A DNA stretch of 50,584 nucleotides, the filler included, from Stramenopiles sp. TOSAG23-2 (taxonomy: Eukaryota): assembly GCA_900128395.1 (NCBI GenBank). It is 2 parts of 2 records of this genome, joined end to end, with 100 filler letters (N's around TTAATTAATTAA, not from the genome) between each part and the next. Parts side by side here need not be neighbours in the genome. Positions count along the whole stretch, not along the records: positions 1 to 25,374 come from LT649454.1; 1 more part is not named here. One strand, written 5' to 3'. The position numbers were made by a program, and so were the translations under genes. Shown here one piece after another: positions 16,079-44,989 of the stretch. A model generated the notes under the pieces. It was given only the letters and a program-made list of their open reading frames with translations. It was not told the origin of the DNA and did no database searches. The first letter of the stretch is position 1. Each line of letters begins with the position of its first letter.

Positions 16079-17271
16079 TTAAACACTTTTCTCCCTCTTA
16101 TACACTAAACAATTGCCATTTTTACACCCTAATGCAATTGCATCATTATTTTCACCACCAATCGTTATAGCTGTAATAGGCTCTTCACTAACTTTATATG
16201 CCCATGATTGACTTAATACTCCGGCATTACCACTGCCAGCACCACTTTTCCACAATCTTAAATAACCATCAGCACCACCAGACAATATATTCATGCCTGC
16301 ACATGCTGTTAAACATAATGTTGGTTGCGCAGTTGGAATAGAAAATAGGACGGACCATCCAGATTCTTCATCATGTATATTCATTTCGCTTTCCGATGCA
16401 CAAACAAATCTATTACTTGAGCACCATTTCACATCTGCAATTGGGCTATCATTTTCAAACAACGCTAATGCTGGACTGCCATCTCCATCTTGAAGATCAT
16501 TAACCGCTAATGTGCCATCATTTCCACCAGATACAAATAAATTGCCATACATTGCAACACAATTCACTTCCGCATCGTGATCATATGCCGTGTAAATTGG
16601 TGTCGTGTTAATGCCACTTGATATTAATTCCCAAATCTTCACCGTTGAATCCCATGAACCACTACATATATATTTCCCATTTGATTCATTCGTAGTTAAA
16701 CAAGACACGGCATCGTCATGTGCATCATTTAATTGCTGTATCATCAAACCCATTTCAACTGAATATACATAAATATTATTATCCCAACTACCTGCTACTA
16801 CTACTGGTACTTTATTATTTTCAACAGTAATTTCGCAACAGGATGACAAAGACAAGGAGCTTAATCGTATACTTCTACGTTGTGACCATCCTTTTTCCCT
16901 ATTAAATTCATGTAATTTTAAAGTTGTATCTTCCGACGTGGTAAATACAGATACCGTATTAGTATTACCAATACTTATTGTTGAGCTGCTACTATTACTA
17001 CTATTCGGTTTATTATTATTTCTGTTACTACTATTTTCTCCAATCCTTACACATGTAATCGCACTTCGATGATATTGTTTAAATGCAAATATTGATTTTG
17101 GATTGGTTGTATTTTCTAATTTTTTACCTAATTCTTCAATAACATATACATTGACTGTAGTAGGTAACATCGATACCGACGAAGAAGAATTGCGTTTATC
17201 TACATTTAAATTACTATTACCTGATATTTTACTTGTTGTGGAATTGCTTTTAATATCATTATTTGAAGTAA

Positions 17272-17302
<31 letters not shown>

Positions 17303-19636
17303 GGTATTCGATGATGTTGTAGTTTGAAATGGATTTCCAAATGGATTTCCTTTCCCAAACTTTGGTTCCTTATTCACATTAGTATTATTATCAATAGTGA
17401 TGGGATTGTTCATTCGTTTGTGATTATCATCCGCTGATATATTATTCCTCATGCTGCTACCTGTTGTTGATGATGATAACGGCGCTTCTATCTTTGGTAC
17501 AGGCATTGGTGGTGGCACAATTTTCTTTGATGGGGGAATTGCATCATATGCTGGTGGTGGTATCGGTTCTTGTTGTTGTTGTTGATTTGAATTATATGCT
17601 GGCGGTGATGGTTGATTTGTCAACTTTTTTGCTGAAGAATTGTCATTATTAGTTCTTAACCCACCATCATCAATAACTATTTTCATTCCATTTCTTGCTA
17701 TATGTGGAGTTGTAAATAATTGTTTCGGTGTTTGTCCAAATTCTCTAATTTGATCTTCAATGGAAGATCTTTCGCGTGGATCAGTAACTTTTTCCAAATC
17801 AACTGCACCTTCATATGTCATATGAAAAAATAAATTATTTGCATCTATCGCTGCATCGCCTTTTTGTTTTGAACCAAATATTAAATCAATCCATTCATGT
17901 AAATGTTCAGAGACATATTCTGATTCCAGTGCATCTCTCATTTGATTTATAAAATCATTTGGATCATTTGCCCAAGGTGGTAATTCTACATCATTTACAC
18001 GGTCCCCGTTTTGACGCACACCCATCCGTAAATCTTGAAAGTTCGATAAAAACTCACCCGCACTGTAAGATGAATTGTCGTAAAATTCCGGTATAAGTTC
18101 TTTTAAATCAGCCGGATTTGTCAGCACACTATCCCATGTTTTAGGAATACTGAAAAACATTCGATCTGGCGCATCAAATGCACCATTTTGCAAGCATAGC
18201 ATATATTCAGGTGCGACGCGTACAATATAAAATAAAACATATCCAGGCGTACTATAATGCGTGCCATACATAAATGGTGGAGGTATTCCTTCTGGTAATG
18301 GCCGACCAGGCCTTGCACGTGGCATATCATCGAATCTTCGACGTATATGTTTTAAACGCTCCTCATTCAATGCACCAATAGGTTTTGAAAGGTCCCGATA
18401 TGTCTTTGGATCATTTAAATCTAATGTTTGGCTTTTATAATCTTGAACAACCCATGGAAACACTGGATATTGCGTCAGGTCATTTACTGAGCGATCTGCC
18501 ATTGTATTTAAATACATTAAATATTTATAATTATCAATTTCCCGATTTTGCCATTTTAATGTCATCGTTTGAATTTCAATTTGTTTTCGTAAACGTTCCT
18601 CGTTGCTATTATTATTATTATAACGATTCAAATTATTATTGTTCTTTCTATATTGAAAGCTATTATTGTTATTATTATTATTATGTTCACATAATACATC
18701 ATCCAATACTGCAACAATTTGATCACGTTCTGTACTAGAAGAACATTTTAAAAATATACTTTTTTTATTATTATCAAAAAAAATTTCCAAGCTTGATTGT
18801 TGCAACATATACCTACGTTTATGTATGGAATTAATATCCATAATAGGACAACGAAATACAGGTTCCCCAACATTATTTACTTGTGCAGGCTGTACATATA
18901 AATGCCTTGTTGTGATCATTAAACATCCTTGTTGTTGTACTAATGGTAATATACGATCTACATAATATACTTTTCTTAACAATGGCCGTTCCGTAAAATC
19001 AACTAATAAACTATTATCAAATTTTTCTGGAATACGATCATTCAACAATGCTCCTAATATCGATCGTTCTTCCCAACGTGTTCTGCTTTTTTGACTAGTA
19101 CTCCATAAAAATTGTAAATTTTCAAAAATTTGATCTACTTGTGTATGAACCAATGAAAATAGACTTTCAAGCGCTCCGTCACTATTATTATTATTATTAT
19201 TATTATCACCACTATTTGCTTCCCGTCTAATATATGGTGCATGGACTCCATCTTCCCTCATTTCAGTGAGACGGCTAGATTTGACTGTGAATATATCATT
19301 ACCAAGTTCTTGACCAGAGTTATCTCGTCCACGTGTATATATTTTTGGTGGTGAATCTTTCATATTTTTAAAACTATATCGCGTCAACGGAATGGAAATA
19401 TCATCTGGTTCAAACATAATGGATTTAGTGCATATTTTTAAACGGCCCTTAATCCTTCTAGAAGCTAATCTTCTTAAATCTAACAACATATTGTTATTGT
19501 TACCATTGTTATTGAATTTATCTCTTGGATTAATATTACACATGAATGCTGAATAATCATCTAAAAAAAATTCACCATCTTCTAATAATAATAAATCAAA
19601 TCTACCACGAGAATCACGTGTTTTTTTCGTAAACAT
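16079..19636 (-). CDS. Protein FAN (NSMAF)-like: GRAM/PH + BEACH + WD40 repeats
   Basis: N-terminal RFDLLLLEDGEFF; BEACH motifs YLMYLNTMADRSVNDLTQYPVFPWV, YGTHYSTPGYV, KELIPEFY, VELPPWA, EWIDLIFG, FGQTPKQLF; WD40 motifs GSWDNNI, SGSWDSTVKIW. Confidence 0.93.
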
Positions 19637-19952
19637 TGTTGTAATATCTATATCTGTGTATCTATATGTGTATATATGTATATAGATAGATATATTTATA
19701 GATAGATACGAAGAATAGATGTATATCCCAAGTCTGTGTAGATGAGATGAACATTTGTTGTTGTCGTTATATATATTTGTTTATTCAAAATATGATTTGT
19801 TGTTGCACGTGCATTTTTATGGACAGCTTGGCTCTTCCCCCTATCAAATGACAGGTGCTGTACTTAAAAGGTAAATTAGAATACAAGTATGTCTATTACG
19901 ATATCAATAGGCTTGGTATAGAATATTTCATCTTCCAATGCATATATCTGTT

Positions 19953-20531
19953 TTAATCTCCCACATGTATAAACAAAATTAGATTCTTTCCTAATTTTTT
20001 CCAAAAAAGCCATTTGGCTTTCTTCACTTTCTTCTTCTTCATATTTTTCTCTACATGCATATAATATTTTACATATGCCTCTGATAGTGATTTGCTCATG
20101 TTGCAATATGTGTGCCCACCACTTTTCATGCCATAGGGTGGGTCACTGAATACAATATGTGCATTACCATTAGCAACAGTATCTAACTCATCATATGCTG
20201 TTAAAAATGGAAACGGTGCGTAGATATCAATGAAGATTCTATAATTATATCCTGATAGGATATAAATGATTCTTGGATCAATATAATGCAAAGTTGCTGT
20301 AGAAACACGATGCCCGAAAATACGTTGCACTTTTCCTAATGCAAATTTCATTGCTTCCAATGGTGTAGAATCATTTATTTTATTTCTTGTAAATTGTTCA
20401 AATGTTGATGTAGCTAATACATGTCGAAAATGTCTCATTTCAAAACCATTCAACCAATTGTTTATAGAGTTGTTTACTCCCAGATCGTTGCCAAATAATG
20501 CATAATTATCCGGGGATACTCCAATGAGCTC
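19953..20531 (-). pseudogene. 5'-truncated topoisomerase IB/tyrosine-recombinase catalytic C-terminus in frame with a DPPY amino-methyltransferase fragment
   Basis: Open frame 20531-19953: LF...NNWLNGFEMRHFRHVLAT...VQRIFGHRVSTATLHYIDPRII (His-x8-Tyr), followed by AHIVFSDPPYG. Confidence 0.6.
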
Positions 20532-21383
20532 TTATGGGAATATTTCAAGACGAAAAATATGGGATTTTTGGAAGAATTAGTATGTAAAATGAGTTCAAAG
20601 GAAGTAACTGAAACACAAGTACAGGACTATTATAACAATTTAAAACCATTCGAATAATAATAATATATTTTACTAAAGCTTCCAGCTCGTTTATTTTTAT
20701 TTTATCTAGTTTCTTTTCCAGTCTTTATTGAGTATATTTGCTTGGTGTAAATTGAAATTACAACACCATTCACTCACATAATCAGTCATCAGATCTTTAA
20801 TATATTTATCTGCCATGTTATAATTGCTTGATTTTTTTGTTTGTTCAATGTCATATATATATCCATCTAATTGATTATCCTCATGATTCATTTCTTGCTC
20901 AATTTATTGAAGTAATTGAATTCACCTATTTCACAATCAGTACAAATGTGAAGAATGTGACCGAATGCGGAATACATGGACGAAGGCTGGTTAATGACAC
21001 TGGGTCGGCATTGCTAAACATGATATCATTTTTGTGGCATGTCGACCTAGAATTAGACAATGATGATTAATATATAACACCGAAAATTGTAGATAATGTA
21101 TTGTAGCTACTGTAATGCTATGGCCATGTATTTTACAATTTTCATGTTCGAAATAGGTTAAAATCCAAAAGAAGAAGAAGAAAATTTTCGAAGTTACCTG
21201 GTAAAGTGCATATCTTGTATTGTATATGGTTGCTAAGAATTATTGTAATGTAAATAAGTATAATAGATATACAACATAGATAGAATCTTTTCACATCCAC
21301 ACAATGTATATAAGGGATATATATATGTATATATAGACACACATGTAAACAGATAATAATAATAATAATTATTAATAAAAACG

Positions 21384-22364
21384 ATGTCACGAATATCATG
21401 GTTTCCTGGCCATATGAAAAAAGCAACACGATTGATTGAAGAGAAACTCAAATTAGCAGATGCAGTCATTGAAGTTCGTGATGCTAGAATACCAATATCT
21501 TCTATTAATCCAACTTTTAATGAGTTAATTGAAAAATATAAACGTCCAAAATTAGTAATTATAAATAAATCAGATTTGATTAATGTTCAAGACCGAAAGT
21601 GGGTCAAAGATTATATATGTAAAACAGAAGTCACGGATGATGTCATATTTACCTCGGCAAAGAAAAATAAAAAGAAAATTGTAAATAATATTAAAAAAAC
21701 ACTTGTAAAAAATACAACATTTAGTAATAAAAAAAAAAAATTCAAACACTCTGGAACTATGGTTATGGTAGTTGGTATGCCAAACGTAGGTAAATCATCA
21801 ATTATCAACTTAATGAGAACATCGATGAACAGTGGTTATAATGCAATTACAAATATGGAGAATAGAAGAAGAAGAAACGCATCATTGTCCAAAAAAAAAA
21901 GACGTTCGCATGTTGCAAAAACTGGTGCAAAACCCGGATTGACTAGACACGTAGCACCAATACAAATTACAACTGATCCAAATATCTTTTTATTTGATAC
22001 ACCAGGTGTTATGATACCTCGTATTGAATCAGATGAAATTGGATTTAATTTAGCATTAGCAAATGTTTTACCAGAAAAAATTGTTGAGAAAGAATTACTT
22101 GCTGAACATTTATTATCTATTATGAATGATAGAATGGCAAATAATAATAATAATAACAAAGATCATCCACAATATATTAAAGCATTGAAATTACCAATGA
22201 ACAAACCAATATATGATATTAATGAATTATTAGATATTGTTGGTAATAATATTGGACGTCCAAGTGATACAACTAGTGGATCATTAGATGCTGCAACATT
22301 TATTTTAAATAAATTCAATAAAGGACAATTTGGAAAATTTTTATTAGACGAACGACAATGTTGA
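21384..22364 (+). CDS. MTG1: Circularly permuted ribosome-biogenesis GTPase, RbgA/YlqF/MTG1 family
   Basis: ISWFPGHMKKA, EVRDARIPISS, NKSD (G4), GMPNVGKSS (G1), PGLTR (G2), DTPG (G3), in circularly permuted order. Confidence 0.9.
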   Translation: MSRISWFPGHMKKATRLIEEKLKLADAVIEVRDARIPISSINPTFNELIEKYKRPKLVIINKSDLINVQDRKWVKDYICKTEVTDDVIFTSAKKNKKKIVNNIKKTLVKNTTFSNKKKKFKHSGTMVMVVGMPNVGKSSIINLMRTSMNSGYNAITNMENRRRRNASLSKKKRRSHVAKTGAKPGLTRHVAPIQITTDPNIFLFDTPGVMIPRIESDEIGFNLALANVLPEKIVEKELLAEHLLSIMNDRMANNNNNNKDHPQYIKALKLPMNKPIYDINELLDIVGNNIGRPSDTTSGSLDAATFILNKFNKGQFGKFLLDERQC

Positions 22365-22557
22365 CTAGAGTAAAAGGTAGAGAGAGAGTTGTTTATGATA
22401 ACTATTTGTAAAAAAGTATATGCGTATATTAATATATTTTTTAAAGTCAAATTATTTTGTTGATCGCGAAACTCCTCACACAAGTATTTATTATGCCCTT
22501 TGAAAATCACAATATAAAATATATATATATATAGATAAAGAAAACACAAATCAAATA

Positions 22558-23543: not shown

Positions 23544-25112
23544 TTACATATTTTTCTTTTGCTTTTTACGACTGGTGTTGTTATTATTATCATCATCATC
23601 GTCATTATTATTATGATTTTTTTTACGTTGAGTTTCCTCTCTTAATTTCTTATTCAATGCACCATCATTCCCTCTCATGATTTTTTCACGTAAAGACATT
23701 GTATTCATTTGTTTATTAGCCGATATTGAACCACTACTACCATCATTTGGAACACCGCCAAATTCACGATAATCTGTATAATATGCAACATCCTTCTTCT
23801 TATCGACAGGTTCTTTAATTTTTTCCATTGTAATTAAACGTCTAGCTAATTTCCAACCTAATCGATCTTCACAATTTGAAATTAATTTTAAACAACCATG
23901 CCTTGGAATATCATGTTCTGTATATTCTTCTACTGCTACTGGTAAAAAATAAACCAATCGACCATTCATAACTAAAAGTGTTGCTGCAAGGTCTAATAAA
24001 TCTAACATGACTTCTTCTGCATGATATGGTTGTGTTTGTGGTATGTGTTTTTGTAAATATTTTTCAGGTACTTTTTCAACAATTTCTCTTTTACTTCCAC
24101 TTTTTTTTGCCCCTGCACGTACACCATACGGTGGATCACAAATAATGGCATCCAATATTGGCTTATTTATACGCATGCATATTCCACTTTTCGACATGTC
24201 GCCTCGTATTAAACATGGTTTTGGAAGATTATATTGTTCTGAATTGGAAAATATATTTGTAGTTTTCTTAAACTCTTGTGCATGTAAAATGCGAATATCA
24301 ATATCAGTTCCTATACAATATGCACCAAATGCTTGCGCAGCAACTATAATACTGCCAGTACCAACAAATGGATCTAAAACAAAACTGCCTTGCCGTGCCA
24401 ATGCATTGTTTGCCATAATAAATGCTAACTCTGCATCCATCGAAGTTGGACCTAAAAATTTTCTTTGTTTTAATGAATATTTTACTGGCAAATCACTACG
24501 TCCATTTGCAATTTCTAATAAAAAATATTTATTAGTAGGTATACGTGTATCTTTCACGCCACTTGGAACGCCTTTTGGTGTATATTCTTCAATAAACCAA
24601 AATGTTAAATCTGGTTTTGACAATTTAACAGGTCCTTCAAATGGTATAAATGCAAATAATTTTCGTTTGTCTTCTTGACTCTTAAAATTGATTTTCTTAC
24701 CAAAGGCACCGACGTTGATTTTCCAAGATATTTTTTTATCAAATAAATTATAGTCTTTTTTAAATAAATTATATTCTTTCGGATCATGATTTTTCATATC
24801 CTCAATAACTTCTTCATCTGTTTTTCCTACACCATAAATTTTATATATACGATTTATCAACAAACAACGAGAACATACATTTTCAGCATCTTTCTCCGAT
24901 TTAAACGTTGCAAACATGAATGGCGATGTAATATTATCTAAATCTGTTTTATTATAAATTTCACTTGGTTTTAATTGAAATAATTGCAATATTGAATCTA
25001 ATTCTCCTTTCCAAAAATTTTGATGTTTCCATGTAAAATGTATGATATAATCTTGTTTCATTTGTTTGTCATTGTTGTTGTTATTATTAGTAGTAGTAGT
25101 AAGTGATGCCAT
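23544..25112 (-). CDS. TRM11: tRNA (guanine(10)-N2)-methyltransferase Trm11
   Basis: YSLKQRKFLGPTSMDAELAFIMAN, VLDPFVGTGS, GTDID, DAIICDPPYGVRAG, GRLVYFLP, RRLITMEK. Confidence 0.93.
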   Translation of the reverse strand: MASLTTTTNNNNNNDKQMKQDYIIHFTWKHQNFWKGELDSILQLFQLKPSEIYNKTDLDNITSPFMFATFKSEKDAENVCSRCLLINRIYKIYGVGKTDEEVIEDMKNHDPKEYNLFKKDYNLFDKKISWKINVGAFGKKINFKSQEDKRKLFAFIPFEGPVKLSKPDLTFWFIEEYTPKGVPSGVKDTRIPTNKYFLLEIANGRSDLPVKYSLKQRKFLGPTSMDAELAFIMANNALARQGSFVLDPFVGTGSIIVAAQAFGAYCIGTDIDIRILHAQEFKKTTNIFSNSEQYNLPKPCLIRGDMSKSGICMRINKPILDAIICDPPYGVRAGAKKSGSKREIVEKVPEKYLQKHIPQTQPYHAEEVMLDLLDLAATLLVMNGRLVYFLPVAVEEYTEHDIPRHGCLKLISNCEDRLGWKLARRLITMEKIKEPVDKKKDVAYYTDYREFGGVPNDGSSGSISANKQMNTMSLREKIMRGNDGALNKKLREETQRKKNHNNNDDDDDNNNNTSRKKQKKNM

Positions 25113-25374
25113 TGTTTTAATAACGATGATGGAGGTGGTGATGGGGATAAACGATTGGTTGATTTTATGCTTTGTTTTTTGGTATAAAATATATATATCT
25201 GTATGTTTGTATTTCTTTCTTATTATATAGAGAGTTTAAGTTCTATAACTTTATTCTAATTTTTTTTAATTTGTCCCGATATAATTTTTACTGTGCCGGC
25301 CAGTCGTAAATTTTCGGTACAAATTTTTTATTATACTTAAACACTATATTAGCTATCAAATACACAAATTAATC

Positions 25375-25474
25375 NNNNNNNNNNNNNNNNNNNNNNNNNN
25401 NNNNNNNNNNNNNNNNNNTTAATTAATTAANNNNNNNNNNNNNNNNNNNNNNNNNNNNNNNNNNNNNNNNNNNN
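25375..25474. other. Artificial contig linker
   Basis: 44 N + TTAATTAATTAA (stops in all six frames) + 44 N, 100 bp in total. Confidence 0.97.
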
Positions 25475-27356: not shown

Positions 27357-29328
27357 TCACTCATTGTATTCCAATTCTTTATCAAAAATTTCTTGAATTT
27401 CACTTGGCGAGACATTTGCTTTTAACAATAAACGTGCAGTTTGAAATAATAAATCATAAATTTGAGAAGAACAAACAAATCCAATACCAGTTGCAGTTTT
27501 ACCATATGTATTATATAGACCTAATTCTTTCTCTAAAAATTCCAATTCACGCTCTCCAATATGTTTATCTAACAATGCACATATATTACTTGCTGGTACA
27601 TCTTGCGATTGTATTAAATGGCGTATGGAATCAACTGTTCTAGTTGTTGAATCTTGATAAACCAGACATGGCGCCATTGAATATTTTTCTTTACATATAA
27701 AATCTTTACTACTACTTTGACCATCTAATACTTTCCATCCATATTTAGCCAATGCATGTTTTACTGATTGAAAATAATGTTCATTGGTAGTATCAAAATA
27801 TAAAATTTTATTATTTGGTTTCCCCATTTTCTTTGATGTTTCAACTGCCCATACCATGATGCTTTTTAATAATGGTTTTCTTGCATCAATTAAAATATCT
27901 ACCACATTATTTTCTACAACATGTTCACGTATATTAATTTTTAGACCACCACTGTGTATATATGCATGCATGTATATTATTTATAATATATATATATATA
28001 TAATATATTAATATATATAAAAGTAAAGGTGAAATATATAATAGAATATAATTTGTTGTTAGAGAGGGATATTTTTACCATATATATATATATATATATT
28101 ATAGTATAATAGACAGATATGGAGATTTAAAAATGTTTTTCACTTACCCACTAACTATTTGATTTGATTCATCTGCAAGTAATACACGTACTATTTTATC
28201 ATATTTTCCCATACTTTTTTGCGCCTTTGCAAGCCTTTCGATCATACGAAAACCTAAACTAACTTCAGCAACATTTAAATCATTATTATTTTCTTGTGTA
28301 AATGCCAATGCTTCTTCGCCAACACTTGAATCAGCTTCAACAATTAATAGTTTATTTTTCGTCTTTTTTTGTTTCTTATTATCTACATTACTGCCATCAC
28401 TATCATCATCACCATATAAAATTGATAACCATTGATTTTTTATTTGAAATGTAGCATCTTTTAATACATCTTGATCTTTATTATTAAGAGACAATTCAGC
28501 CGCCCCCCACGAACTGGGATTTCCATAGGAATTATCTGGAATATTCCAAAAAACAGGAACCGAAAGATTATCACTATGATCACGAATGATATTTGTTACT
28601 AATTCAGGATTTTCATATATAAATAAAAAATTATAAATACCAAACCTATCTATGGTGTAATCGGAAACATCACTAGATTTACCAGACATACGGATAATTT
28701 TTTCACCATCACCTTGAATTTGTACTTTACCATTTTTTAATTTCTGTTCATATTCTTCTGTAGCATCTGAAAATGCAAATACCATTGCAAAAATTTGACT
28801 AATACCAAGGAAGCCAGCAAATGTTGAACGGGCAGTTTGCAAACCCAATATTTTCAATTTCGTTTTGCTACTATTCGTAGAATTCAAATATTCCCAGGGT
28901 TTTTTTCCCATACTTTTTAAGATCATTTCAGCTGGTTTTGTTGCCCATATAATGGATGAAAATATTTGTTGACGAGCATATGTAAAAATGAATGACGGGG
29001 AGTTATATTTTTTTCTTGGATGTAATAATAAAAATGCTTCGAATGCACCTATTGCAAAAATTCCTGTTCCAGATGCAATTAATCCCCAAAATTTACTTGG
29101 AGATGTCATTCTATCAAATGCAAGCGATACTTTTTGTTGATAAGAAGTTATATGCGCATTATTTGCCAAAATTTGCTGATTTAAACGACGAAATTCTTGC
29201 GTATATGGTTTCGGATAAGTTTCAATATCTTTATCATAACATCTCCACATTCCATAATGTAAAAATGATTTACATTGTTCAATAATATTAGTACTATTAT
29301 TATTTGTTATTGTTGATGGTGAATTCAT
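27357..29328 (-). CDS. Uncharacterised membrane protein; intron 27952-28147
   Basis: Two ORFs joined in frame by GG|GTAAGT...CACAG|T (VSG-GGLKINIREHV); two hydrophobic segments in the N-terminal half. Confidence 0.75.
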
Positions 29329-29805
29329 TTTATAATTTATATATGGGATATAATTTCAAAAAATATATACTCAATCCTGCAATCTAATTATTAATCAAAA
29401 AGGAAGAAAAGGATACGTATGGATGTGGCTGTATATGTGACATGTATAATATATATATGTATTAATTATTATTATAATTTGGTGTCATTCACGCCGAATC
29501 CGAGATTTTTGACGGCCTCATCTGGAGAACTGAATGCAAAAAAAAATAAATTCGATTTGTGCGCGGGTGTCACGTCGTGAGCACGTGAAAGCCAAATCTT
29601 CTTTTTTTTAAGCTGAAGGATTATGGAAATTTTAATTTTACTCGATTATTTTCCAACTCTTTAATAACTGCCTATTCTAAGCTTACGAAAAGTACGGGTG
29701 ATATTCACCTGCTAAATTTACTATCAGAGTTATGAGATATAATAATAAATAATACCAGGTAGTGTAAAAAAAAAATAATAAATAATTATTGCTGTGTGTT
29801 GCTAT

Positions 29806-30283: not shown

Positions 30284-31550
30284 CGTTTTGATAAAGGATT
30301 AGGTTTAGATTCCTGTAGCGTAAATTGCCAGTTATGTTGTCCAGTTGTGTTCGAGCGTAAGAGTATGTTCATGATGCCGACATGAGTACTGCACATGGAT
30401 CATGATGTGGTCAATAATAATAATAAAATTTCTTATTAATTATTAGAATCTGCCATTATCTATTATTATTATATTATTCATTATTCTACTCACTTGCTAA
30501 TATTATTATTATATTTTTTTTTGGCATTTGGCTCTACCCAGCTACTGTACCAATTATTGTGTTCCACCTATTATTAGAATTATAGTGCTACTAATAATTT
30601 ATGATTTCAACACCAAATCGCTAAAATTGAATATTTTAAGGGTCGTATTTTTTTCCTTGGATTCTAAAACTTACCGCTGACACAGAATCTGCTGCAAGTT
30701 TACATAATGTTATTTACCTGCTAATGTAAAATTACATGTAAAATGACTGCAATGTAATTTTTCTAGCAGGGAAATATGAAGGTGATTAGGATTATTATTA
30801 GTCTAGTCTAGTCTAATAATAATTTTTTTTTTATTTTTTTTAGATCTATCTATTATTTCAATATTTGCACATTTCAATATTATACATGGTCTTTTTTTTT
30901 TGTTGGGTATAAATTTTGGCTATTTGTTTGGCTATATTGTTTGGCTATATTTTTCATTTTGGCTATATTATTGCTTAAGAAAACAGACTGTGTTAGCGGT
31001 AATTTTTTGATAATTAATATTTTTTTGACAATATAGCACATCATACATTTTATCCGGGAAATTGTTGTAGCTCTATATTTTTTTGTTGTTTATGTTGTGT
31101 TGTTTTGTTGTTGTTGTTGTTGTGAAGAATGATGAAGAATGTATTAGTAATGTCGTCAATCAACAAAATAATAATAAATATTTGGCAAAAAAAAGTGTCA
31201 CACACAACAACAACCACACACTTTTGGAATCATATGGAATCAATTGGTATAGAAAAAATTACCAAACATTTATTAAATATTGTGGCTGAAATTAGTAAAC
31301 ATTGGCAGAAAACATTTTTGTGGCATTTATTTGGCATCCCCGTGGCATTTATTTGGCAGTGGCATCACACCGCAGAGTAAAACAAAAGCATTAAAAAAAC
31401 GGCACGCGTCCTAGCCAACCACCCACAGCCATCCATATATAGACAGACAATATATATATATATATATATATAATGATAAATAAGATACAGGCATATACCC
31501 AAGGACAAACAAAAATATATAAAAGGATATAATTAGGAAAACGTAACAAT

Positions 31551-33923
31551 ATGAAATTCCCTACTGTATCTGATTTGAAAGAGTCTGAAAGAAATTTAAA
31601 AATTCAATTTGCTAGCAATGATTATTTTCCATATCCTGATTATATGAAGAAAGATCTAGAAACTATGTTAAGTTTTGCAAATAAATGCATTCAGGAAAAA
31701 TTAAGCTTGCAAGATTTGCTTCGGTCAAGATTACAAGACCCGGATTGCCATGTTCCTTATATCTGGGACGACAGATATAATGGTATGAATTATTGGGGTG
31801 TACCAGAAGCGCCTGATGATGATACCCAGACAGAGATGGCCAGAATTATGCAAGGACAGTTTATGTATATGGGCAAGGAAAAACCTGAAGCGCAGCTTAT
31901 GCATTTCTTTGCAAAACCAATTGAAAGAAAGGTAAAAATATATTCACAGTCGGATGAATATAAAACACTTTCTGAAAAAATATTTGTATTCAAAATCAAT
32001 ATATGCCCTTTCAACAGCAGTAAATACTGTGGATCCCGTGAGACCCCAGGCAAGTCTTGGCAAACTGAGTTTCGGAAACGTGTAGAAGATGAGGAAGTGA
32101 AAGTTTGGCGTTTGATTTGTTGTCCTAGTAATATGACATTAGCAAACTTCCACGACCGTATAATTGGACCTGTTATGGGATGGGCAAGAAATTATCATTC
32201 ATATTTGTTCACAGATAATGAAAGTGGCGCGTGTTTTGCACCAAAACGAAGTATGGCAGTGGATTCAATGCATTTTAACCGAGTAATACCATATTTTCTT
32301 GATGACACAAAATATAGGTTATGTCATATTTTACGTAAGGTTGGCGATAGTATGTCATATAATTATGATTTAGGTGATACTTGGTTACATAATATTGAGT
32401 TAATTCAAATAGGTCATTCAGGGGATGCGTTGGTAAATGAAACTGGGCATCTTGAAGTGGACAAGTGGTTGAGGAACAAGAACAACAGTCGCGATTTTAA
32501 ATTGGATAGTGTTCAGTTATTTGCAGGAGAAATAAATTGTCCACCAGAAGACTCTTTCGGTTGTCAAAGAGGGGAATATGGCGAAATATTAAATAAAGGG
32601 AAAAATTGTAAATACTTCCCTGAAGCTATGAATGGATTAAATTGGAAACAACACAATATTAAAGATCCATACAATTTCAATCTTGATGCACATAGGCAAC
32701 GATTGCAAGATGCTATGAAGGGAAAAGCTAGCTCTAAAACTGGTCAAAAAAGCTTCAGTTTCCCGTTCTTTCGTGGGAATAGCAGTGGTGACATTCATGA
32801 TGTAACAAAACAGACATCAGAAAAAGTTGTCAAATCAAAACTTAATAAATACATGAGTGAGAAAATACGTATAGCTCCGGATGATAGAAATGATGCTATT
32901 TGTAGCAACTGTGGCCGGCAACCAGATATATCTACAGGAGCTCCTGCTTTAAAACTCTGTAAAGGTTGTAGAAGTGTGTGGTATTGTGATGCAGAATGCC
33001 AAAAAAATGACTGGAAGCACCATAAACCTAAGTGTAAAGCAGCAAGAAAAGAGCGAAAAGAATATCAAAAAAGAAAAGAGAAAAACAAAGAAAAAAAGAA
33101 GGTCAGAAAAACTACGGACAAAGCTGAAGATGATGCACTTGCATATTTGAAAAAGATGCAAGAAGCATCAGATAAAAGGTTGAAAGAGACGAAACCAGAA
33201 GCACATGCTGCGTTACAAAGCATTTTCAAAGAAGCAGAAGAAATTGCTGCTGAAACTGGTGCTGATCCTGCAATACAAATGTTGCAAACTCATTTTGAAC
33301 GTAGAATTCGACCCAGACAAATTGCCAGAGAAATTGATACTTTAGAGGCTACATGGGAAAAATATGTGGCCGGTATTTATCAAAAAAACTTCCCAGAACC
33401 AAGGGGTACTGATAATGATTACAATGGCAATTACATAGTTGATTTTGATCGGGATTATGGTTATCAGCTGATAGGTCGCATGGCTGGAAACTTTGGTGTA
33501 AAATATATGCAGGAGTTATACTTATTGCACAATCCAATTGGAATTTCAGTGGAATGTACAACTGGGATAAGACTTAAAGTAATTGATAGTTCATGCGGTG
33601 GAACACTTGGTTCTAATATATTTGTGTTTTTAAGGCAAGTGTATACCAATACTAGTGACAGAGCAATTGGATATAACATACAAGAGATATATATTGTGGA
33701 TTTTGTTGATCAAGATGAACATAAAAACATTCATTGGTTTTCTGTTCCTGATCCAGCGGGTAAGAACAGGGATGAACCGATCCCTTTTCTTCGCATGAAA
33801 AATTGGTTGTGCAGCGCAATACAAAAGACTAAAGTAAATTGTGGGGATTACTATTTCTATTTGACAGGTAAAAATGAACCACCATTAAATGTACGAAATT
33901 TGGCCTCATCGCGAAATCTCTGA
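31551..33923 (+). CDS. pRiA4b ORF-3-like (MM3350-like) domain + MYND zinc finger protein
   Basis: VWRLICCPSNMTLANFHDRIIGPVMGW..YHSYLF, YNYDLGDTWLHNIEL, GEINCPPEDSFG; MYND CSNC...CKGCRSVWYCDAECQKNDWKHHKPKC. Confidence 0.85.
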   Translation: MKFPTVSDLKESERNLKIQFASNDYFPYPDYMKKDLETMLSFANKCIQEKLSLQDLLRSRLQDPDCHVPYIWDDRYNGMNYWGVPEAPDDDTQTEMARIMQGQFMYMGKEKPEAQLMHFFAKPIERKVKIYSQSDEYKTLSEKIFVFKINICPFNSSKYCGSRETPGKSWQTEFRKRVEDEEVKVWRLICCPSNMTLANFHDRIIGPVMGWARNYHSYLFTDNESGACFAPKRSMAVDSMHFNRVIPYFLDDTKYRLCHILRKVGDSMSYNYDLGDTWLHNIELIQIGHSGDALVNETGHLEVDKWLRNKNNSRDFKLDSVQLFAGEINCPPEDSFGCQRGEYGEILNKGKNCKYFPEAMNGLNWKQHNIKDPYNFNLDAHRQRLQDAMKGKASSKTGQKSFSFPFFRGNSSGDIHDVTKQTSEKVVKSKLNKYMSEKIRIAPDDRNDAICSNCGRQPDISTGAPALKLCKGCRSVWYCDAECQKNDWKHHKPKCKAARKERKEYQKRKEKNKEKKKVRKTTDKAEDDALAYLKKMQEASDKRLKETKPEAHAALQSIFKEAEEIAAETGADPAIQMLQTHFERRIRPRQIAREIDTLEATWEKYVAGIYQKNFPEPRGTDNDYNGNYIVDFDRDYGYQLIGRMAGNFGVKYMQELYLLHNPIGISVECTTGIRLKVIDSSCGGTLGSNIFVFLRQVYTNTSDRAIGYNIQEIYIVDFVDQDEHKNIHWFSVPDPAGKNRDEPIPFLRMKNWLCSAIQKTKVNCGDYYFYLTGKNEPPLNVRNLASSRNL

Positions 33924-41853: not shown

Positions 41854-42253
41854 TAATGCTATATTAGCAACCAATGACATGAAATTTATAGTAGCAATTA
41901 TGAAACAATTTCAAGAGAAACAGAATTCTAGTAAGTTGAAGAAAGATGCATTTGGTCATACTGGAGAATATAGACGTGTTGATAATCTAGACAGATATTG
42001 TAAAACTAAAGTTGATGACCACTATGAATGTAATGATGGAAATTTTTTATGTATTCATGGACATGATGTATTAGAATTTGATCATTGGTCTTGTTGTGGT
42101 GTCGCAAAAAGAAATGGAACATGTACAAATGGTTCCATGGATGGTGGTTGGGGAAAATTTAAGTTTAACGAACAAGTCGAGCGTTTAAAAATGCGATTTA
42201 TAAATACAAAAGATGAAGAAGATGCAGGGTTAAAATGGTTAAATAGTGATTGA
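41255..42253 (+). CDS. Dual-specificity protein phosphatase with C-terminal Cys/His motif
   Basis: IHCHAGISRS (HCxxGxxR), ICPNGGFRKQL; N-terminal MGGSPS; C-terminal HWSCCG...C. Confidence 0.9.
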
Positions 42254-42382
42254 TTTTTTTTTTGCTTTTTTAAATAAAATTCTAAAATGATGTTTAGTCT
42301 ATTGCCTCAGTTATTGTATTTTCTTTTCAAGAGAGTATGCATTTTTAAGAATTATCACATGAGTAAATTATAAATAAAATAT

Positions 42383-44488
42383 TTACGCGTATATGATATT
42401 TTTTATGTACTCGTGTGAGGAGAGGCACGAACCCGTGCCAGCGGGGGCGCCACAGGGGCTGTGCACGGCACAGTCGCAGACAGGATTGGTGCGACTGCAC
42501 ACAGATGCCAGGTCCGTCACCACGCCTGAGCCGCACTTGCGTCGATCACCGAGCCTTGCTCCGGAATCTGCAACACATGGTGCCGGCCCGGCCGGCAAGC
42601 AACCGCACGACCCAAGCCCAGTCCCGGCGCAGTCGCGACCCGGGCCACAGCAAGCTTCACCAGTCGGATCGCCAGGACAGCAGCAGGTGGTGAGATTGCA
42701 AGAGCGAAACTGCCGCGCGAAAAAACAATTATTTTTAACTTCCTTTAACAAAGCACTTGGTGTAATAATTTCAAAATTTCCCGTCTTCATTAACTCATTG
42801 GCCACAGTAACTACATCATCTACTGTATGCGACCAAACATTTACTGGTACCAAACTATATCCATTGACATCCTTCATATCTCTTGAAATTTCTTTATTTT
42901 TTAACAAATTTTTAAAATGTTGAATAGTGCCGATTACACCTTGCATAGTCCCAGAAGTAGAATTCCCCCATAGCGACACCCTACCACCAATAACAGGCTT
43001 TTTTGTATTTGGATCAAACTTTGTACCAGTCCAGCCAGAATAACCAGCACCAAATGTATACCAAAATATCCCTTCTATTGTCTCCTGTTCCAATAATGGT
43101 TGCAATACGGACATGTTTGGCGAATTTAGATTACCAGCACCAATTACACTTACAACACCGCCATTATTATTATTATTATTACTTCCTGCTGCATCATCAC
43201 CATCACCTATTATTAGATTATGTCTTGTTTTGTTTAAATAATATCCAGTCAAGTTTGCAAATTCGTTGAATTGATCTTTTTTCCATGTGGCGGGATAAAC
43301 ATATCCTAAACCACTTGGGGCACCAATAAAATCATCATTTGCTGTACTAGTTTTTTTCAAATATTCAATAATCGGTAAGCCTAATTCAACAAGTCCAGGT
43401 GAAATTGTCCAGCCAAGTGGAACTTTCCCTCTACTCTTGCTACCCCACCAATTTTGATTAGTAACAAATGAATTCATTAGCCATTGTATATTATCTCCAT
43501 CTGTCATTAAAAACGCTATACGGTGTTTATTATTATCAGTAACACCTTTTTTCATCTTTTTTCTTTCTTTTACAACTGAATTGTTTAAATGTTTTTTTAT
43601 TTCACCACATTTATAGTTTGATAATACAGCAACATTATGAGCCATATCTGAAGCATGAACAAAAAATCCTTTTTCTCCAAGCTTGGAGACGTATTGATAT
43701 TCTGGCCCCCATCCCATCGCTGCCTTCAAATCTTTTGTCTTACTAAATTCAGCAATGGCTTCTTGAACTTGTTCACCACCATTTGGATATTTTGTTGTAT
43801 CTGTTGAATATTCTAACGTCGGCATTCTGCCAAAAATTGCATACTCTGCTAAGTTTGGGTATATATTTGGATGTTGAAATGATATCATGTTTCCACTATA
43901 TGCGCTAATTCCACCTCTTGATTTGTAAGCATCTCGTTCACGTGTGCCAGATAGATCTATTACAAAAGGTATACTCCATGATTTTAACATCGATAATGTT
44001 TTCGTGGAAGTAGAGGACGTTGCCACTAATAGTTCGTTTTGTTTTTGCCCAGCAATATATGTCAATGCGGCGTTAACCGAACCATCCGTTGTATTGTACA
44101 ATACATATCCAGTAATTTTATTGTAAAATAATGATAAAATGTCATATGGTTTTTGAATCATGGATAAATTAATGTTAATTTCATTTGGGCAATTATTTTT
44201 CATTATTGTAAGCCACGCCGAATATGAATCACTTCCATCTTTTGATGGATAATCTTTTGGTATGCGATATAACTTAGGTTGTGTTCTAGCTAAACCACCA
44301 CCTAATGTCAATAGAGTGATTAATAAATTATCACCTGCATTAAGATACATATCAGAATAAACAATTATTTCACCAGGTGGATTAATAGAGGATGGATATG
44401 GAAATTCTTCACGTGCATTATTTGTTGCAAATGTAACTGATATGAATAATAATAGAAGCAGTGATAAATATATAGAAGAATTTATCAT
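42383..44488 (-). CDS. Secreted GxGYxYP putative glycoside hydrolase with Cys-rich C-terminal tail
   Basis: Signal peptide after ATG 44488; FLMTDGDNIQW, RGKVPLGWTISP, APSGLGYVYP, GYSLVPVNVWS; 16-Cys tail. Confidence 0.85.
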   Translation of the reverse strand: MINSSIYLSLLLLLFISVTFATNNAREEFPYPSSINPPGEIIVYSDMYLNAGDNLLITLLTLGGGLARTQPKLYRIPKDYPSKDGSDSYSAWLTIMKNNCPNEININLSMIQKPYDILSLFYNKITGYVLYNTTDGSVNAALTYIAGQKQNELLVATSSTSTKTLSMLKSWSIPFVIDLSGTRERDAYKSRGGISAYSGNMISFQHPNIYPNLAEYAIFGRMPTLEYSTDTTKYPNGGEQVQEAIAEFSKTKDLKAAMGWGPEYQYVSKLGEKGFFVHASDMAHNVAVLSNYKCGEIKKHLNNSVVKERKKMKKGVTDNNKHRIAFLMTDGDNIQWLMNSFVTNQNWWGSKSRGKVPLGWTISPGLVELGLPIIEYLKKTSTANDDFIGAPSGLGYVYPATWKKDQFNEFANLTGYYLNKTRHNLIIGDGDDAAGSNNNNNNGGVVSVIGAGNLNSPNMSVLQPLLEQETIEGIFWYTFGAGYSGWTGTKFDPNTKKPVIGGRVSLWGNSTSGTMQGVIGTIQHFKNLLKNKEISRDMKDVNGYSLVPVNVWSHTVDDVVTVANELMKTGNFEIITPSALLKEVKNNCFFARQFRSCNLTTCCCPGDPTGEACCGPGRDCAGTGLGSCGCLPAGPAPCVADSGARLGDRRKCGSGVVTDLASVCSRTNPVCDCAVHSPCGAPAGTGSCLSSHEYIKNIIYA

Positions 44489-44989
44489 GGTGATATGGAT
44501 ACTTGATCTTGTTGTATTATTCGTCAATTATATATAATAATTTGTCAATATAAAGTATAAACAATCGAATAGAGTTTGTATATATTGTTTTGCTGTTTAT
44601 TAGTAATTTCGATATGTGTGTGTATATATATAAATGAATGATTATTTTTTTTTATTATATTTATATTGCGTTGTTGTTGTTGTGTTTTTTTTTGGCTTCT
44701 TCTTTTTTATTTAATAAAGCTTATGTGTGTATAATTAATTTATACTACTTAGACTACTTTTCGTATTAATATTACCACAGGTATATGGGGGTATATCCCC
44801 TTTTAACCCTTAAATTTATAATATAATGTAAATTGTATATACTTATACTTTTACTTTATAAATATTAAAAAAATTTCATTAATTCACTTCAGAGCATCAT
44901 GTTAGATAATATATATATATACAGTATATTTGTATTATACTTGAGATACACAATACGTCTCTCTCCTGTGACACTTCGTTATATACACA

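What the first reader, a model, noticed from the sequence alone, without database searches (positions are those of the whole stretch)
19953..20531. Topoisomerase IB/tyrosine-recombinase active site fused in frame to a DPPY methyltransferase motif
Seen: one open frame encodes LF...NNWLNGFEMRHFRHVLAT, then GH-x8-Y in GHRVSTATLHYIDPRII (Tyr codon 20285-20283), then 47 codons later IVFSDPPYG (DPPY 20144-20133). Established: vaccinia TopIB H265/Y274 and lambda Int H333/Y342 share this 9-residue His-Tyr spacing; eukaryotic Top1 has YLDPRI at its catalytic Tyr; KxFRT/HxxRH precedes it; DPPY is motif IV of N6A/N4C methyltransferases. YR and adenine-MTase genes co-occur in DIRS elements and Polinton-like viruses. 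Inference: relic of an endogenous virus or mobile element using a TopIB-like integrase/resolvase coupled to a DNA MTase, possibly an undescribed fusion. The N-terminal half is missing, so this copy is probably dead, and the fusion could be a deletion artefact.
Basis: partly seen in the sequence, partly recalled or inferred. Interest (0 to 1): 0.75.

Follow-up and report, generated by a model that had tools for sequence, protein, structure and literature searches.

The report
Decayed topoisomerase-IB and methyltransferase remnant
A 192-codon open frame between two ordinary genes of a marine protist holds the tail end of a short bacterial/viral-type topoisomerase IB joined to a scrap of a DNA-methyltransferase-like gene; both halves are incomplete, so it is most likely a decaying leftover of foreign DNA and not a new fusion enzyme.

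Summary
Window 19953-20531 (-) is one 192-codon open frame with R33-x-x-R36, G-H74-x8-Y83-IDPRII and DPPY at 130-133, at the stated coordinates.

The first half resembles the C-terminal catalytic segment of short type IB topoisomerases more than that of tyrosine recombinases. A profile of the ORF and two relatives ranked 11 TopIBs first among 1009 control ORFs; 1 of 300 shuffled profiles did so. No curated model reaches threshold.

The second half matches only the motif IV region of amino-methyltransferases.

Neither enzyme is whole. No upstream TopIB part is detectable and no AdoMet-binding motif I is present.

The two halves separate in relatives. Some keep the TopIB tail without DPPY and others keep DPPY with a different upstream sequence.

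Key residues are replaced in relatives: H74Y in a 99%-identical strain and R36H in a more distant relative.

All 30 other ORFs of 150 aa or more in the window are cellular or have no Pfam match, and none is a viral hallmark gene.

Verdict: a relic of two adjacent foreign genes welded in frame by deletion. Interest is low to moderate.

The parts
19953..20531 (-). 192-codon open frame, with its stop codon at 19953-19955. It is the large exon of a database gene model (P0131, 205 aa).
20265..20444 (-). TopIB-like C-terminal catalytic segment: R33-H-F-R36, about 38 residues, then G-H74-x8-Y83-I-D-P-R-I-I.
   Evidence: Alignments to TopIB profiles; codon positions
20209..20210 (-). Junction between the TopIB-like part and the DPPY part. 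The X20 contig departs from the window here. Relatives P0007 and P0133 diverge just after the residues IYAPF.
20082..20200 (-). Methyltransferase motif IV region: YDELDTV..NAHIVFS-DPPY-GMKSGG, with DPPY at 20144-20133.
19945..20081 (-). 137-139 nt segment encoding EAYVKYY...FIHVGD. It is absent from the X20 contig and from relatives P0006, P0135, P0136 and P0137, which continue with FALEDE. Its ends are not GT..AG, so it is an insertion/deletion difference and not a spliced intron.
20660..20917 (-). Stretch missing in the 98%-identical strain L001. It removes the upstream open piece 20706-20903 and lies inside the 407-nt intron (20519-20925) of gene model P0131.
20926..20977 (-). Predicted first exon (MYSAFGHILHICTDCEI) of gene model P0131, with GT at 20925-20924 and AG at 20520-20519. 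No RNA support was seen here.
21069..21134 (-). Second, weaker copy of the G-H-x8-Y motif (KIHGHSITVATIHYLQFSVLYI), in the same strand and frame. It may be a relic of a tandem copy.
   Evidence: tblastn E=0.04; A2 profile 11.2 bits, E=0.0082 among 494 window ORFs

Best explanation
The frame is a decayed remnant of two adjacent, co-oriented foreign genes that a deletion has welded into one frame. The upstream gene was a short (bacterial/viral-type) type IB topoisomerase. Only its C-terminal catalytic segment survives: the [R/K]-x-F-R helix, about 38 residues, then G-H-x8-Y-I-D-P. The downstream gene was an amino-methyltransferase. Only its motif IV strand (hydrophobic strand plus DPPY-G) and a little flanking sequence survive. 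It was most likely the N-terminus of an N6/N4 (beta-class) DNA methyltransferase. The product, if made, cannot work as either enzyme. It lacks the first catalytic Arg and the hairpin Lys of a TopIB, and it lacks the AdoMet-binding motif I of a methyltransferase. Shown here: the motifs, the preference for TopIB, the incompleteness of both halves, the separability of the halves in relatives, the loss of key residues in relatives, and the cellular neighbourhood. Inferred: the foreign (bacterial, phage or large-DNA-virus) origin, the original gene order, and the lack of function.
For: TopIB assignment:
- Profile A2 against 1009 distinct ORFs from control loci (60 TopIB, 28 tyrosine recombinases, 921 others) placed TopIBs at ranks 1-11. 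The alignments cover about 60 columns, from [KR]xFR to YIxPxI. Recombinases first appear at rank 12 and match only the GH..Y part.
- Of 300 shuffled profiles, 1 gave 11 of 11 and 0 reached 11.3 bits.
- The window's 110 residues alone put TopIBs at ranks 1 and 2, and 10 TopIBs in the top 25.
- hhalign of A2 against 14 TopIBs gave P=9.9e-4 over 63 nearly gapless columns.
- The language-model atlas gave PF01028 clusters as hits 2 and 3 (scores 0.88 and 0.87, 184 and 160 shared features). No recombinase set was listed among the 30 hits.
- PF14370 gave weak hits on the Y-IDPRI stretch of P0003 (E=0.046) and P0007 (E=0.5).
- The residue three before the Arg is R or K in all relatives, as in the K-x-x-R of TopIB. 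It is not the H of the recombinase H-x-x-R (the family motifs are recalled).

Methyltransferase part:
- Weak hits to several families: PF02086 E=0.0015 on P0002, TIGR00095 E=0.0058, a PHROG DNA methyltransferase E=0.0097, and M.MboIIA residues 9-36 E=0.33.
- The A4 rank test and its shuffles.
- Atlas: 18 of 30 hits are DNA-methyltransferase clusters, a minority of whose members carry PF01555 (12-21% in the listed clusters); best score 0.91.

Incompleteness:
- No TopIB or recombinase profile hit upstream of 20444 in any of the six frames of 19640-21400.
- No [FLIVMAC]xGxG or GxGx(1-2)[GAST] pattern in the three minus-strand frames of 19640-21400.

Decay:
- H74Y and F72L in L002, X3 and P0001. 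R70H in L001. R36H in P0004 and P0134.
- L001 lacks about 249 nt upstream.
- The exhaustive protein search found only 7 clusters, 63-185 aa. The longest cluster member is 205 aa, and no full-length relative was found.

Context:
- The frame lies between a BEACH/FAN-like gene and an MTG1-like GTPase gene. This arrangement is collinear in strains L001 and L002.
Against: - No curated model (Pfam PF01028, PF00589 or PF01555) reaches threshold on the window ORF.
- TopIB profiles scored against the window ORF give 0-2 bits, which is background.
- hhalign against a single Agrobacterium TopIB gave P=0.44.
- A recombinase profile gave 11.7 bits, but its seed had been picked by similarity to the query and is therefore biased. 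An unbiased recombinase profile gave 0.3 bits for the window and 9.0 for P0004.
- The structure model was poor (pLDDT 44), so no fold test was possible.
- Points against 'dead': the frame is 192 codons long in 31% GC DNA. In strain L001 it carries 4 substitutions and no indel, while about 10 indels lie in the 1.2 kb around it. Relatives at about 70% identity still hold open frames of up to 170 aa. A database gene model exists (P0131). Three small contigs from RNA libraries touch the region, but DNA carry-over is not excluded.
- The methyltransferase class is unresolved. D12, RsmD-like and beta-class models all give weak hits.
Confidence: 0.58

Rival explanations
1. The frame is a living, lineage-restricted gene (gene model P0131: a 17-aa exon, a 407-nt intron and this exon). 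Its product is a small protein built from a catalytically dead TopIB tail and a methyltransferase scrap, kept for some non-enzymatic role such as DNA binding.
For: The long open frame. In L001 there is no indel inside the two predicted exons, while about 10 indels, including the 249-nt deletion, fall in the predicted intron and the flanks. The frame is open in four near-identical sequences: P0130, P0131, P0132 and P0001. Relatives at about 70% identity keep open frames (P0133, 170 aa). Contigs from RNA libraries lie at 20038-20202 and 21011-21181.
Against: No contig shows the predicted splice, and the RNA-library contigs have depth of about 3 and may be DNA. The 5 substitutions among strains are 3 non-synonymous to 2 synonymous, including H74Y. 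A 2-nt deletion changes the C-terminus in L002 and P0001. Relatives end at different places: P0004 has 93 aa and is marked complete, and P0005 carries an internal deletion. The flanking indels lie partly in low-complexity DNA.
Confidence: 0.2
2. The first half is the C-terminal box of a tyrosine recombinase (an integrase of a Crypton-, DIRS- or phage-like element), not of a TopIB.
For: In a tblastn search of plasmids, 3 of the 12 weak hits (E 5-6) are annotated integrases covering R36 to Y83. hhalign against two of them gave P=3.4e-4 and 1.3e-3. A recombinase profile seeded on one of them gave 11.7 bits, the top score among the 494 window ORFs. PF00589 gave E=0.12 on P0133. An unbiased recombinase profile gave 9.0 bits on P0004.
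Against: Those recombinases were picked from 7.3 Gb by likeness to the query, so the tests are biased. The unbiased recombinase profile gives the window 0.3 bits. In the A2 rank test recombinases come after 11 TopIBs and align over only about 20-28 columns. The residue at -3 is R or K, not H. The R-to-H spacing is 38, close to the roughly 41-42 of TopIB (41 counted by hand in the Agrobacterium TopIB) and far from the roughly 22-23 recalled for typical recombinases. The atlas lists only PF01028 sets.
Confidence: 0.12
3. The motifs are chance patterns in a lineage-specific ORFan or in non-coding DNA.
For: All database hits are below curated thresholds. The fold model is poor. Shuffled profiles sometimes place many TopIBs high, up to 11 of 11 in 1 of 300.
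Against: Two independent halves each pass a shuffle control. The alignments fall on the catalytic residues in the right order and spacing. Atlas leads for each half point to the same families.
Confidence: 0.06
4. It is one exon of a genuine bifunctional TopIB-methyltransferase enzyme of an undescribed virus or mobile element.
For: The in-frame junction exists in four near-identical strains. A second GH-x8-Y motif lies 813 nt upstream in the same frame.
Against: Motif I is absent and the upstream TopIB parts are absent. The junction is not shared by relatives. There are no hallmark genes and no terminal repeats. No longer homologue was found.
Confidence: 0.03

Closest known systems
Short type IB topoisomerases of bacteria and large DNA viruses (Pfam PF01028 Topoisom_I; poxvirus/Deinococcus type)
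   Same: The C-terminal catalytic segment: basic residue-x-x-Arg, about 40 residues, then His (Asn in most bacterial members) -x8-Tyr followed by I-x-P-x-[IV]. Alignment to bacterial TopIBs is nearly gapless over about 60 residues. The existence of a short form in some bacteria and viruses is stated in the abstract of PMC4824112, which I saw only in the search listing.
   Different: Only about 60-90 of roughly 330-400 residues are present. The first Arg and the hairpin Lys region cannot be found. Scores are far below the family threshold. The His or the Arg is replaced in some relatives. A profile of giant-virus TopIBs (13 sequences) gives nothing, 1.2 bits.
Tyrosine recombinases (Pfam PF00589 Phage_integrase), including eukaryotic Crypton/DIRS recombinases
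   Same: The shared superfamily pattern R...G-H-x8-Y. Weak matches to some integrases that carry a long insert between the two boxes.
   Different: R or K instead of H three residues before the Arg. A longer R-to-H spacing. Ranked behind TopIBs. No N-terminal recombinase parts.
N6/N4 amino-methyltransferases (Pfam PF01555 N6_N4_Mtase, beta class, e.g. M.MboIIA and CcrM-like; alternatively D12 class PF02086)
   Same: A hydrophobic strand plus DPPY-G, preceded by a D-x-L-D-x-V stretch. It aligns to residues 9-36 of M.MboIIA and to 26 columns at the N-terminus of CcrM-like proteins. Atlas: 18 of 30 hits are DNA-methyltransferase clusters, a minority of whose members carry PF01555.
   Different: No motif I and no target-recognition domain. 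Only 13-26 residues align. The class is not resolved, since D12 and RsmD-like models also give weak hits. All scores are below curated cut-offs.
Trm11-like tRNA methyltransferase gene of the same window (23544-25235, -)
   Same: It also carries DPPYG (IICDPPYGVRAG) 3.5 kb away on the same strand.
   Different: The likeness is limited to 13-16 residues around the motif (BLASTP E=0.006, hhalign P=3.2e-4 for single comparisons). The A4 profile ranks it only 4th among the window's ORFs at 5.7 bits, E=0.53. There is no evidence that the fragment is a copy of it.

Membership tests
Type IB topoisomerase (PF01028) | Match to the curated family model at or above its gathering score | tested here: not met
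   No PF01028 hit at E<=10 on the ORF, the read-through P0008 or the relatives. TopIB profiles built here give the window ORF 0-2 bits and P0003 6.6-7.4 bits.
Type IB topoisomerase (PF01028) | C-terminal catalytic triad in order and spacing: basic-x-x-Arg, about 40 residues, His/Asn, 8 residues, Tyr | tested here: met
   R33, R36, H74 and Y83, with R-to-H spacing 38 and H-to-Y spacing 9. These align to the corresponding positions of TopIB profiles.
Type IB topoisomerase (PF01028) | A profile of the query family retrieves TopIBs ahead of unrelated proteins and of tyrosine recombinases | tested here: met
   Top 11 of 11 among 1009 ORFs. Of 300 shuffles, 1 equalled the count and 0 the top score.
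Type IB topoisomerase (PF01028) | First catalytic Arg and beta-hairpin Lys in an upstream core domain | tested here: not met
   No profile hit upstream of 20444 in any of six frames of 19640-21400. My by-eye matches to the piece 20706-20903 were not supported.
Type IB topoisomerase (PF01028) | TopIB/recombinase C-terminal fold | tested here: inconclusive
   The AlphaFold2 model has mean pLDDT 44, with only residues 32-72 at 54-71. No fold search was run on it.
Tyrosine recombinase (PF00589) | His-x-x-Arg box (His three residues before the Arg) | tested here: not met
   That position is R in the window, P0001 and P0004, and K in P0003, P0005 and P0133. The family motif is recalled.
Tyrosine recombinase (PF00589) | Match to the family model | tested here: not met
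   No hit on the window ORF. E=0.12 on P0133. An unbiased profile of 15 recombinases gives 0.3 bits for the window and 9.0 for P0004.
Amino-methyltransferase (PF01555 / PF02086) | Motif IV (D/N-P-P-Y/F/W) after a hydrophobic strand | tested here: met
   HIVFS-DPPY-G at residues 125-134. The A4 profile ranks MTase ORFs 1-7 of 1376, and 0 of 200 shuffles reach its top score.
Amino-methyltransferase (PF01555 / PF02086) | AdoMet-binding motif I (F-x-G-x-G type) | tested here: not met
   No such pattern in the three minus-strand frames of 19640-21400.
Amino-methyltransferase (PF01555 / PF02086) | Match to a curated family model at its cut-off | tested here: not met
   The best is PF02086 at 18.7 bits on relative P0002, against a cut-off of 22. 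Nothing is found on the window ORF. P0136, the longest DPPY relative, has no Pfam hit.
TopIB-methyltransferase fusion protein | The same domain junction conserved in relatives | tested here: not met
   P0007 and P0133 continue after IYAPF with other sequence. P0002, P0006, P0136 and the X20 contig have a different sequence before the DPPY part. Only the 98-99% identical strains share the junction.
Endogenous viral or mobile element | Hallmark genes or terminal repeats nearby; multiple copies | tested here: inconclusive
   None of the 30 other ORFs of 150 aa or more has a viral or transposon family. Only low-complexity repeats are present. There are no copies elsewhere in the window except the weak motif at 21069-21134. 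Genome-wide copy number is not testable because no assembly is held.

The most novel reading that the evidence does not exclude
The ORF family (7 clusters, known only from marine samples) descends from an undescribed integrating element or virus of marine protists. That element would have carried tandem short-TopIB genes next to a DNA methyltransferase. Alternatively, the TopIB tail has been domesticated as a small, catalytically dead DNA-binding protein that is still under constraint. Hints: the frame is indel-free amid indel-rich flanks. A second GH-x8-Y motif lies one gene-length (813 nt) upstream in the same frame. In P0133 a weak TopIB-core-like stretch follows the TopIB tail.
Probability: 0.1. 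Interest if true: 0.6.

Novelty: new member of a known kind. Interest (0 to 1): 0.28.

Why it matters
If the reading is right, this is a small fossil of foreign DNA (bacterial, phage or large-virus type) in the nuclear genome of an uncultured-type marine protist. It shows how deletions can weld scraps of two genes into a long open frame that gene predictors then annotate as a protein (gene model P0131). It warns against reading in-frame motif pairs as new fusion enzymes. It would matter more only if intact copies exist. A TopIB-based integrating element of eukaryotes is not known to me. I ran no literature search aimed at that point; the three listings showed none.

Tried and rejected
- Whole-genome searches were not possible because no assembly is held. 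The earlier-findings index held nothing.
- Word-indexed homologue searches for longer relatives found none, but the tool calls this weak evidence.
- The viral-contig scan with A2 found no relative among 77 candidates. tblastn against phages gave 14 records at E 3-7, none informative. Rfam gave no family in 18500-22500.
- The top tblastn hit in plasmids (H1, Agrobacterium vitis) lies in a stretch with no open frame of 80 aa or more and no annotation, so I dropped it as spurious.
- I thought by eye that 20706-20903 (…IEQTKKSS…YIKDLMTDY) plus a GT..AG intron at 20777-20529 supplied the TopIB hairpin Lys. No profile supports this, and strain L001 lacks the piece.
- I considered reading the four in-frame stops at 20904-20994 (three TGA, one TAA) as a code change or tiny introns. 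I rejected this because the neighbouring genes are long open frames under the standard code.
- I considered the 137-139 nt skip in contig X20 as an intron. I rejected this because its ends are not GT..AG even after allowing for the 1-nt ambiguity, and because DNA-derived relatives lack the segment too.
- I considered the whole ORF as a Dam-like (D12) methyltransferase whose N-part only mimics TopIB. PF02086 does not hit the full ORF, and the atlas gives TopIB for the N-part.
- The hypergeometric P of 1.3e-14 for the rank test overstates the case, because the TopIBs are related to each other. I replaced it with the shuffle control.
- The giant-virus TopIB profile gave no signal, so no closer tie to giant viruses than to bacteria can be claimed.
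- RNA-library contigs cover only 20038-20209 and 21011-21181, plus a 26-nt piece at 19917-19942. Absence of cover elsewhere says nothing.
- The structure model was too poor for a fold search.
Full report
**Setting.** The window is AT-rich (about 29-38% GC in 2-kb steps) and carries long, mostly intron-free eukaryotic genes. All 31 open frames of 150 aa or more were scanned against Pfam. They include ankyrin, RCC1, HMG-box, SLC12 permease, ELO, a BEACH/FAN-WD40 protein (16079-19780, -), an MTG1-like GTPase (21369-22364, +), SET, a Trm11-like methyltransferase (23544-25235, -), DUF6739, PRiA4_ORF3+MYND, PAP2, a dual-specificity phosphatase and a GxGYxYP hydrolase. None is a capsid, packaging ATPase, protein-primed polymerase, transposase or integrase. 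The same DNA occurs in small runs that may be the window's source (X1, X2) and, in part, in runs on record as marine or aquatic metagenomes. Only X3 of these was laid. The finding lies in the 1.7-kb gap between the BEACH gene and the GTPase gene.

**The observation.** Window 19953-20531 (-) is open for 192 codons. The quoted peptides and codon positions are correct: R33 20435-20433, R36 20426-20424, H74 20312-20310, Y83 20285-20283, DPPY 20144-20133.

**Direct database tests.**
- The window's ORF has no Pfam, NCBIfam or PHROG match near threshold and no meaningful PDB sequence match.
- An exhaustive phmmer search of 1.84 billion representatives found only 7 proteins at E<=0.001, all 63-185 aa.
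- Their clusters hold 15 listed members. The longest is a 205-aa database gene model, P0131.
- Word-indexed searches for longer relatives found none.
- The family is therefore narrow and, as far as sampled, never full length.

**Which family is the first half?**
- The pattern R-H-F-R-H-x-L-A-T … G-H-x8-Y fits both type IB topoisomerases and tyrosine recombinases, which share a catalytic fold (recalled).
- To separate them I fetched reference sequences with the tools:
  - 30 TopIB genes from 401 unnamed Pseudomonadota genomes;
  - TopIB genes from 32 IMG/VR loci, 13 of them used for a giant-virus-type profile;
  - 25 recombinase matches from three genomes, giving 15 distinct proteins.
- A profile of the window's first 110 residues plus relatives P0003 and P0004 (A2) was scored against all 1009 distinct open frames of 100 aa or more in those loci (60 TopIB, 28 recombinases, 921 others).
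  - The 11 best are all TopIBs.
  - They align over about 60 columns, from the basic-x-F-R box to Y-I-x-P-x-I.
  - Recombinases first appear at rank 12 and match only the G-H…Y stretch.
- Because TopIBs resemble each other, I calibrated the test with 300 column-shuffled profiles. One gave 11 of 11. None reached the real top score of 11.3 bits; the highest was 10.0.
- The window's sequence alone still puts TopIBs at ranks 1 and 2, and 10 in the top 25.
- hhalign of A2 against 14 TopIBs gives P=9.9e-4 over 63 nearly gapless columns.
- Independent leads agree. The atlas returns PF01028 clusters as hits 2 and 3 and lists no recombinase set. PF14370 weakly hits the Y-IDPRI stretch of P0003 and P0007.
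- The residue three before the Arg is R or K in every relative, as in the K-x-x-R of TopIB and unlike the H-x-x-R of recombinases (recalled).
- The Arg-His spacing is 38. It is 41 in the Agrobacterium TopIB by my own count.
- Results against this reading:
  - TopIB profiles scored on the window's ORF give 0-2 bits, no better than other window ORFs.
  - A single TopIB gives hhalign P=0.44.
  - The giant-virus TopIB profile gives nothing.
  - A recombinase profile gave 11.7 bits, the top among 494 window ORFs. Its seed had been chosen from 7.3 Gb by likeness to the query. An unbiased recombinase profile gives the window 0.3 bits and P0004 9.0.
- I conclude that the segment belongs to the TopIB/recombinase superfamily and that TopIB is the better fit. 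I put this at about 4 to 1.

**Is the rest of a TopIB there?**
- No. TopIB and recombinase profiles find nothing upstream of 20444 in any of the six frames of 19640-21400.
- My by-eye matches of 20706-20903 to the Lys hairpin were not supported.
- That piece is absent from strain L001.
- A second, weaker G-H-x8-Y motif lies at 21069-21134 in the same frame (tblastn E=0.04; A2 profile E=0.0082 among 494 ORFs). It may be a trace of a tandem copy.

**The DPPY half.**
- Only sub-threshold hits appear, but all are to methyltransferases and all fall on the motif IV region:
  - PF02086 on relative P0002, E=0.0015, 18.7 bits against a cut-off of 22;
  - RsmD TIGR00095, E=0.0058 on P0002 and 0.051 on the window ORF;
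  - PHROG DNA methyltransferases, E=0.0097;
  - M.MboIIA residues 9-36, E=0.33.
- A profile of the DPPY part (A4) ranks open frames from methyltransferase loci 1-7 of 1376, over 11-26 aligned columns.
- Of 200 shuffled profiles, none reached its top score (10.7 against at most 5.7), and none put more than 3 in the top 7.
- The atlas gives DNA-methyltransferase clusters, a minority of whose members carry PF01555, for 18 of 30 hits. The best score is 0.91 with 156 shared features, below the 170 that marks a confident family call.
- The longest alignments are to the N-termini of beta-class enzymes. Relative P0002 starts with Met 12 residues before the aligned Asp. A beta-class N-terminus is therefore my best guess, but D12 or RsmD-like classes are not excluded.
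- Whatever the class, no AdoMet-binding motif I pattern exists in the minus-strand frames of 19640-21400. The BEACH gene starts about 300 nt downstream. The methyltransferase is therefore a fragment.
- The Trm11-like gene 3.5 kb away also has DPPYG, but the likeness stops at 13-16 residues.

**The junction.**
- In P0007 and P0133 the TopIB tail continues after IYAPF with other, mutually conserved sequence and no DPPY.
- In P0002 the DPPY part is preceded by other residues.
- A 272-nt contig from RNA library X20 is identical to the window over 20082-20209, then departs completely at 20209/20210. The departing sequence is not in the window.
- X20 and relatives P0006, P0135, P0136 and P0137 also lack 137-139 nt (19945-20081) and continue with FALEDE. 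The window encodes FALEDE in another frame at about 19940.
- The ends of that segment are not GT..AG, so it is an insertion/deletion difference and not an intron.
- Only the 98-99% identical sequences share the window's junction: L001/P0132, L002/P0001/X3 and P0130.
- The in-frame fusion is therefore a local accident.

**Decay or constraint?**
- Two metagenome contigs are collinear with the window, flanking genes included.
- In 19600-21420, L001 has about 10 indels outside the frame, including a roughly 249-nt deletion at 20660-20917. It has none inside the frame, where there are 4 substitutions.
- L002 has a 2-nt deletion six codons before the stop. This changes the C-terminus, as in P0001.
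- The five distinct substitutions inside the frame are:
  - synonymous: 20409 and 20220;
  - R70H: 20323;
  - F72L: 20316;
  - H74Y: 20312.
  The codon effects were read and agree with P0132 and P0001.
- P0004 and P0134 have His in place of Arg36.
- Loss of the Arg and of the His argues against catalysis.
- The indel-free frame, its length (P about 1.7e-7 for a given random stretch) and the open frames in 70%-identical relatives leave room for a non-enzymatic function or for recent decay.
- The database gene model P0131 joins a 17-aa exon (20977-20926) to 20518-19953 through a GT..AG intron. L001's big deletion falls inside that intron.
- No contig shows this splice. The three RNA-library contigs are short, have depth of about 3, and may be DNA.

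**Origin.**
- The two remnants lie about 25 residues apart, co-oriented, as in compact bacterial, phage or viral genomes.
- The best-aligning TopIBs are bacterial or from a virus-labelled contig (L123, L157, L140).
- The donor cannot be named from 60 residues.
- There are no terminal repeats, only TA-rich 28-mers at 19671-19698 and 21320-21347 and ATT-type runs. There are no Rfam families.

**Literature.**
- I saw only search listings and the starts of abstracts.
- They state that a short TopIB occurs in some bacteria and viruses (PMC4824112, PMC2621148).
- They list Mimiviridae gene-repertoire papers that mention TopIB (PMC3620924, PMC8097291).
- I did not read the papers. No supplements were consulted.

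**Verdict.** The TopIB reading of the first motif and the methyltransferase reading of the second are supported at the motif-region level. The fusion is a deletion artefact confined to one lineage, and both enzymes are incomplete. This is a relic of foreign genes, of low to moderate interest. Its value would rise only if intact or multi-copy relatives are found.

Noticed in passing
window 21069-21134 (-): A second G-H-x8-Y motif (KIHGHSITVATIHYLQFSVLYI) lies 813 nt upstream of the first, on the same strand and in the same frame. The A2 profile gives E=0.0082 among 494 window ORFs. It may be a trace of a tandem TopIB copy. An RNA-library contig (X19) covers 21011-21181.
   Followed up: partly
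window 23544-25235 (-): A Trm11-like methyltransferase gene (PF01170 E=6.8e-11) carries its own DPPYG motif, 3.5 kb from the finding on the same strand. The likeness to the fragment is limited to the motif.
   Followed up: yes
window 42383-44527 (-), GC 0.38 in 42001-44000: A GxGYxYP putative glycoside hydrolase (PF14323 E=4.6e-51) lies in the most GC-rich stretch of the window. It may be a horizontally acquired gene.
   Followed up: no
window 31533-33923 (+): A 796-aa open frame combines a plasmid pRiA4b ORF-3-like domain (PF07929 E=3.5e-19) with a MYND zinc finger.
   Followed up: no
window 19671-19698 and 21320-21347: TA-rich 28-nt direct repeats (79% alike) sit at both edges of the 1.65-kb intergenic relic. 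They are low-complexity, so they are probably promoter-type sequence and not target-site or terminal repeats.
   Followed up: partly
protein P0133, residues 103-128 (relative, not in the window): After the TopIB tail, a stretch (…GKEKYLAA…) aligns weakly (about -2 to +1 bits) to the start of the TopIB core in two profiles. This hints that a second TopIB copy followed in that lineage.
   Followed up: partly
window 25375-25418 and 25431-25474: Two runs of N (44 each) lie just upstream of the Trm11-like gene. They are assembly gaps.
   Followed up: no
window 27357-29355 (-): Two adjacent open frames both match DUF6739 (E=5.2e-7 and 3.2e-32) at different profile positions. This is probably one gene split by an intron or a frameshift.
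   Followed up: no
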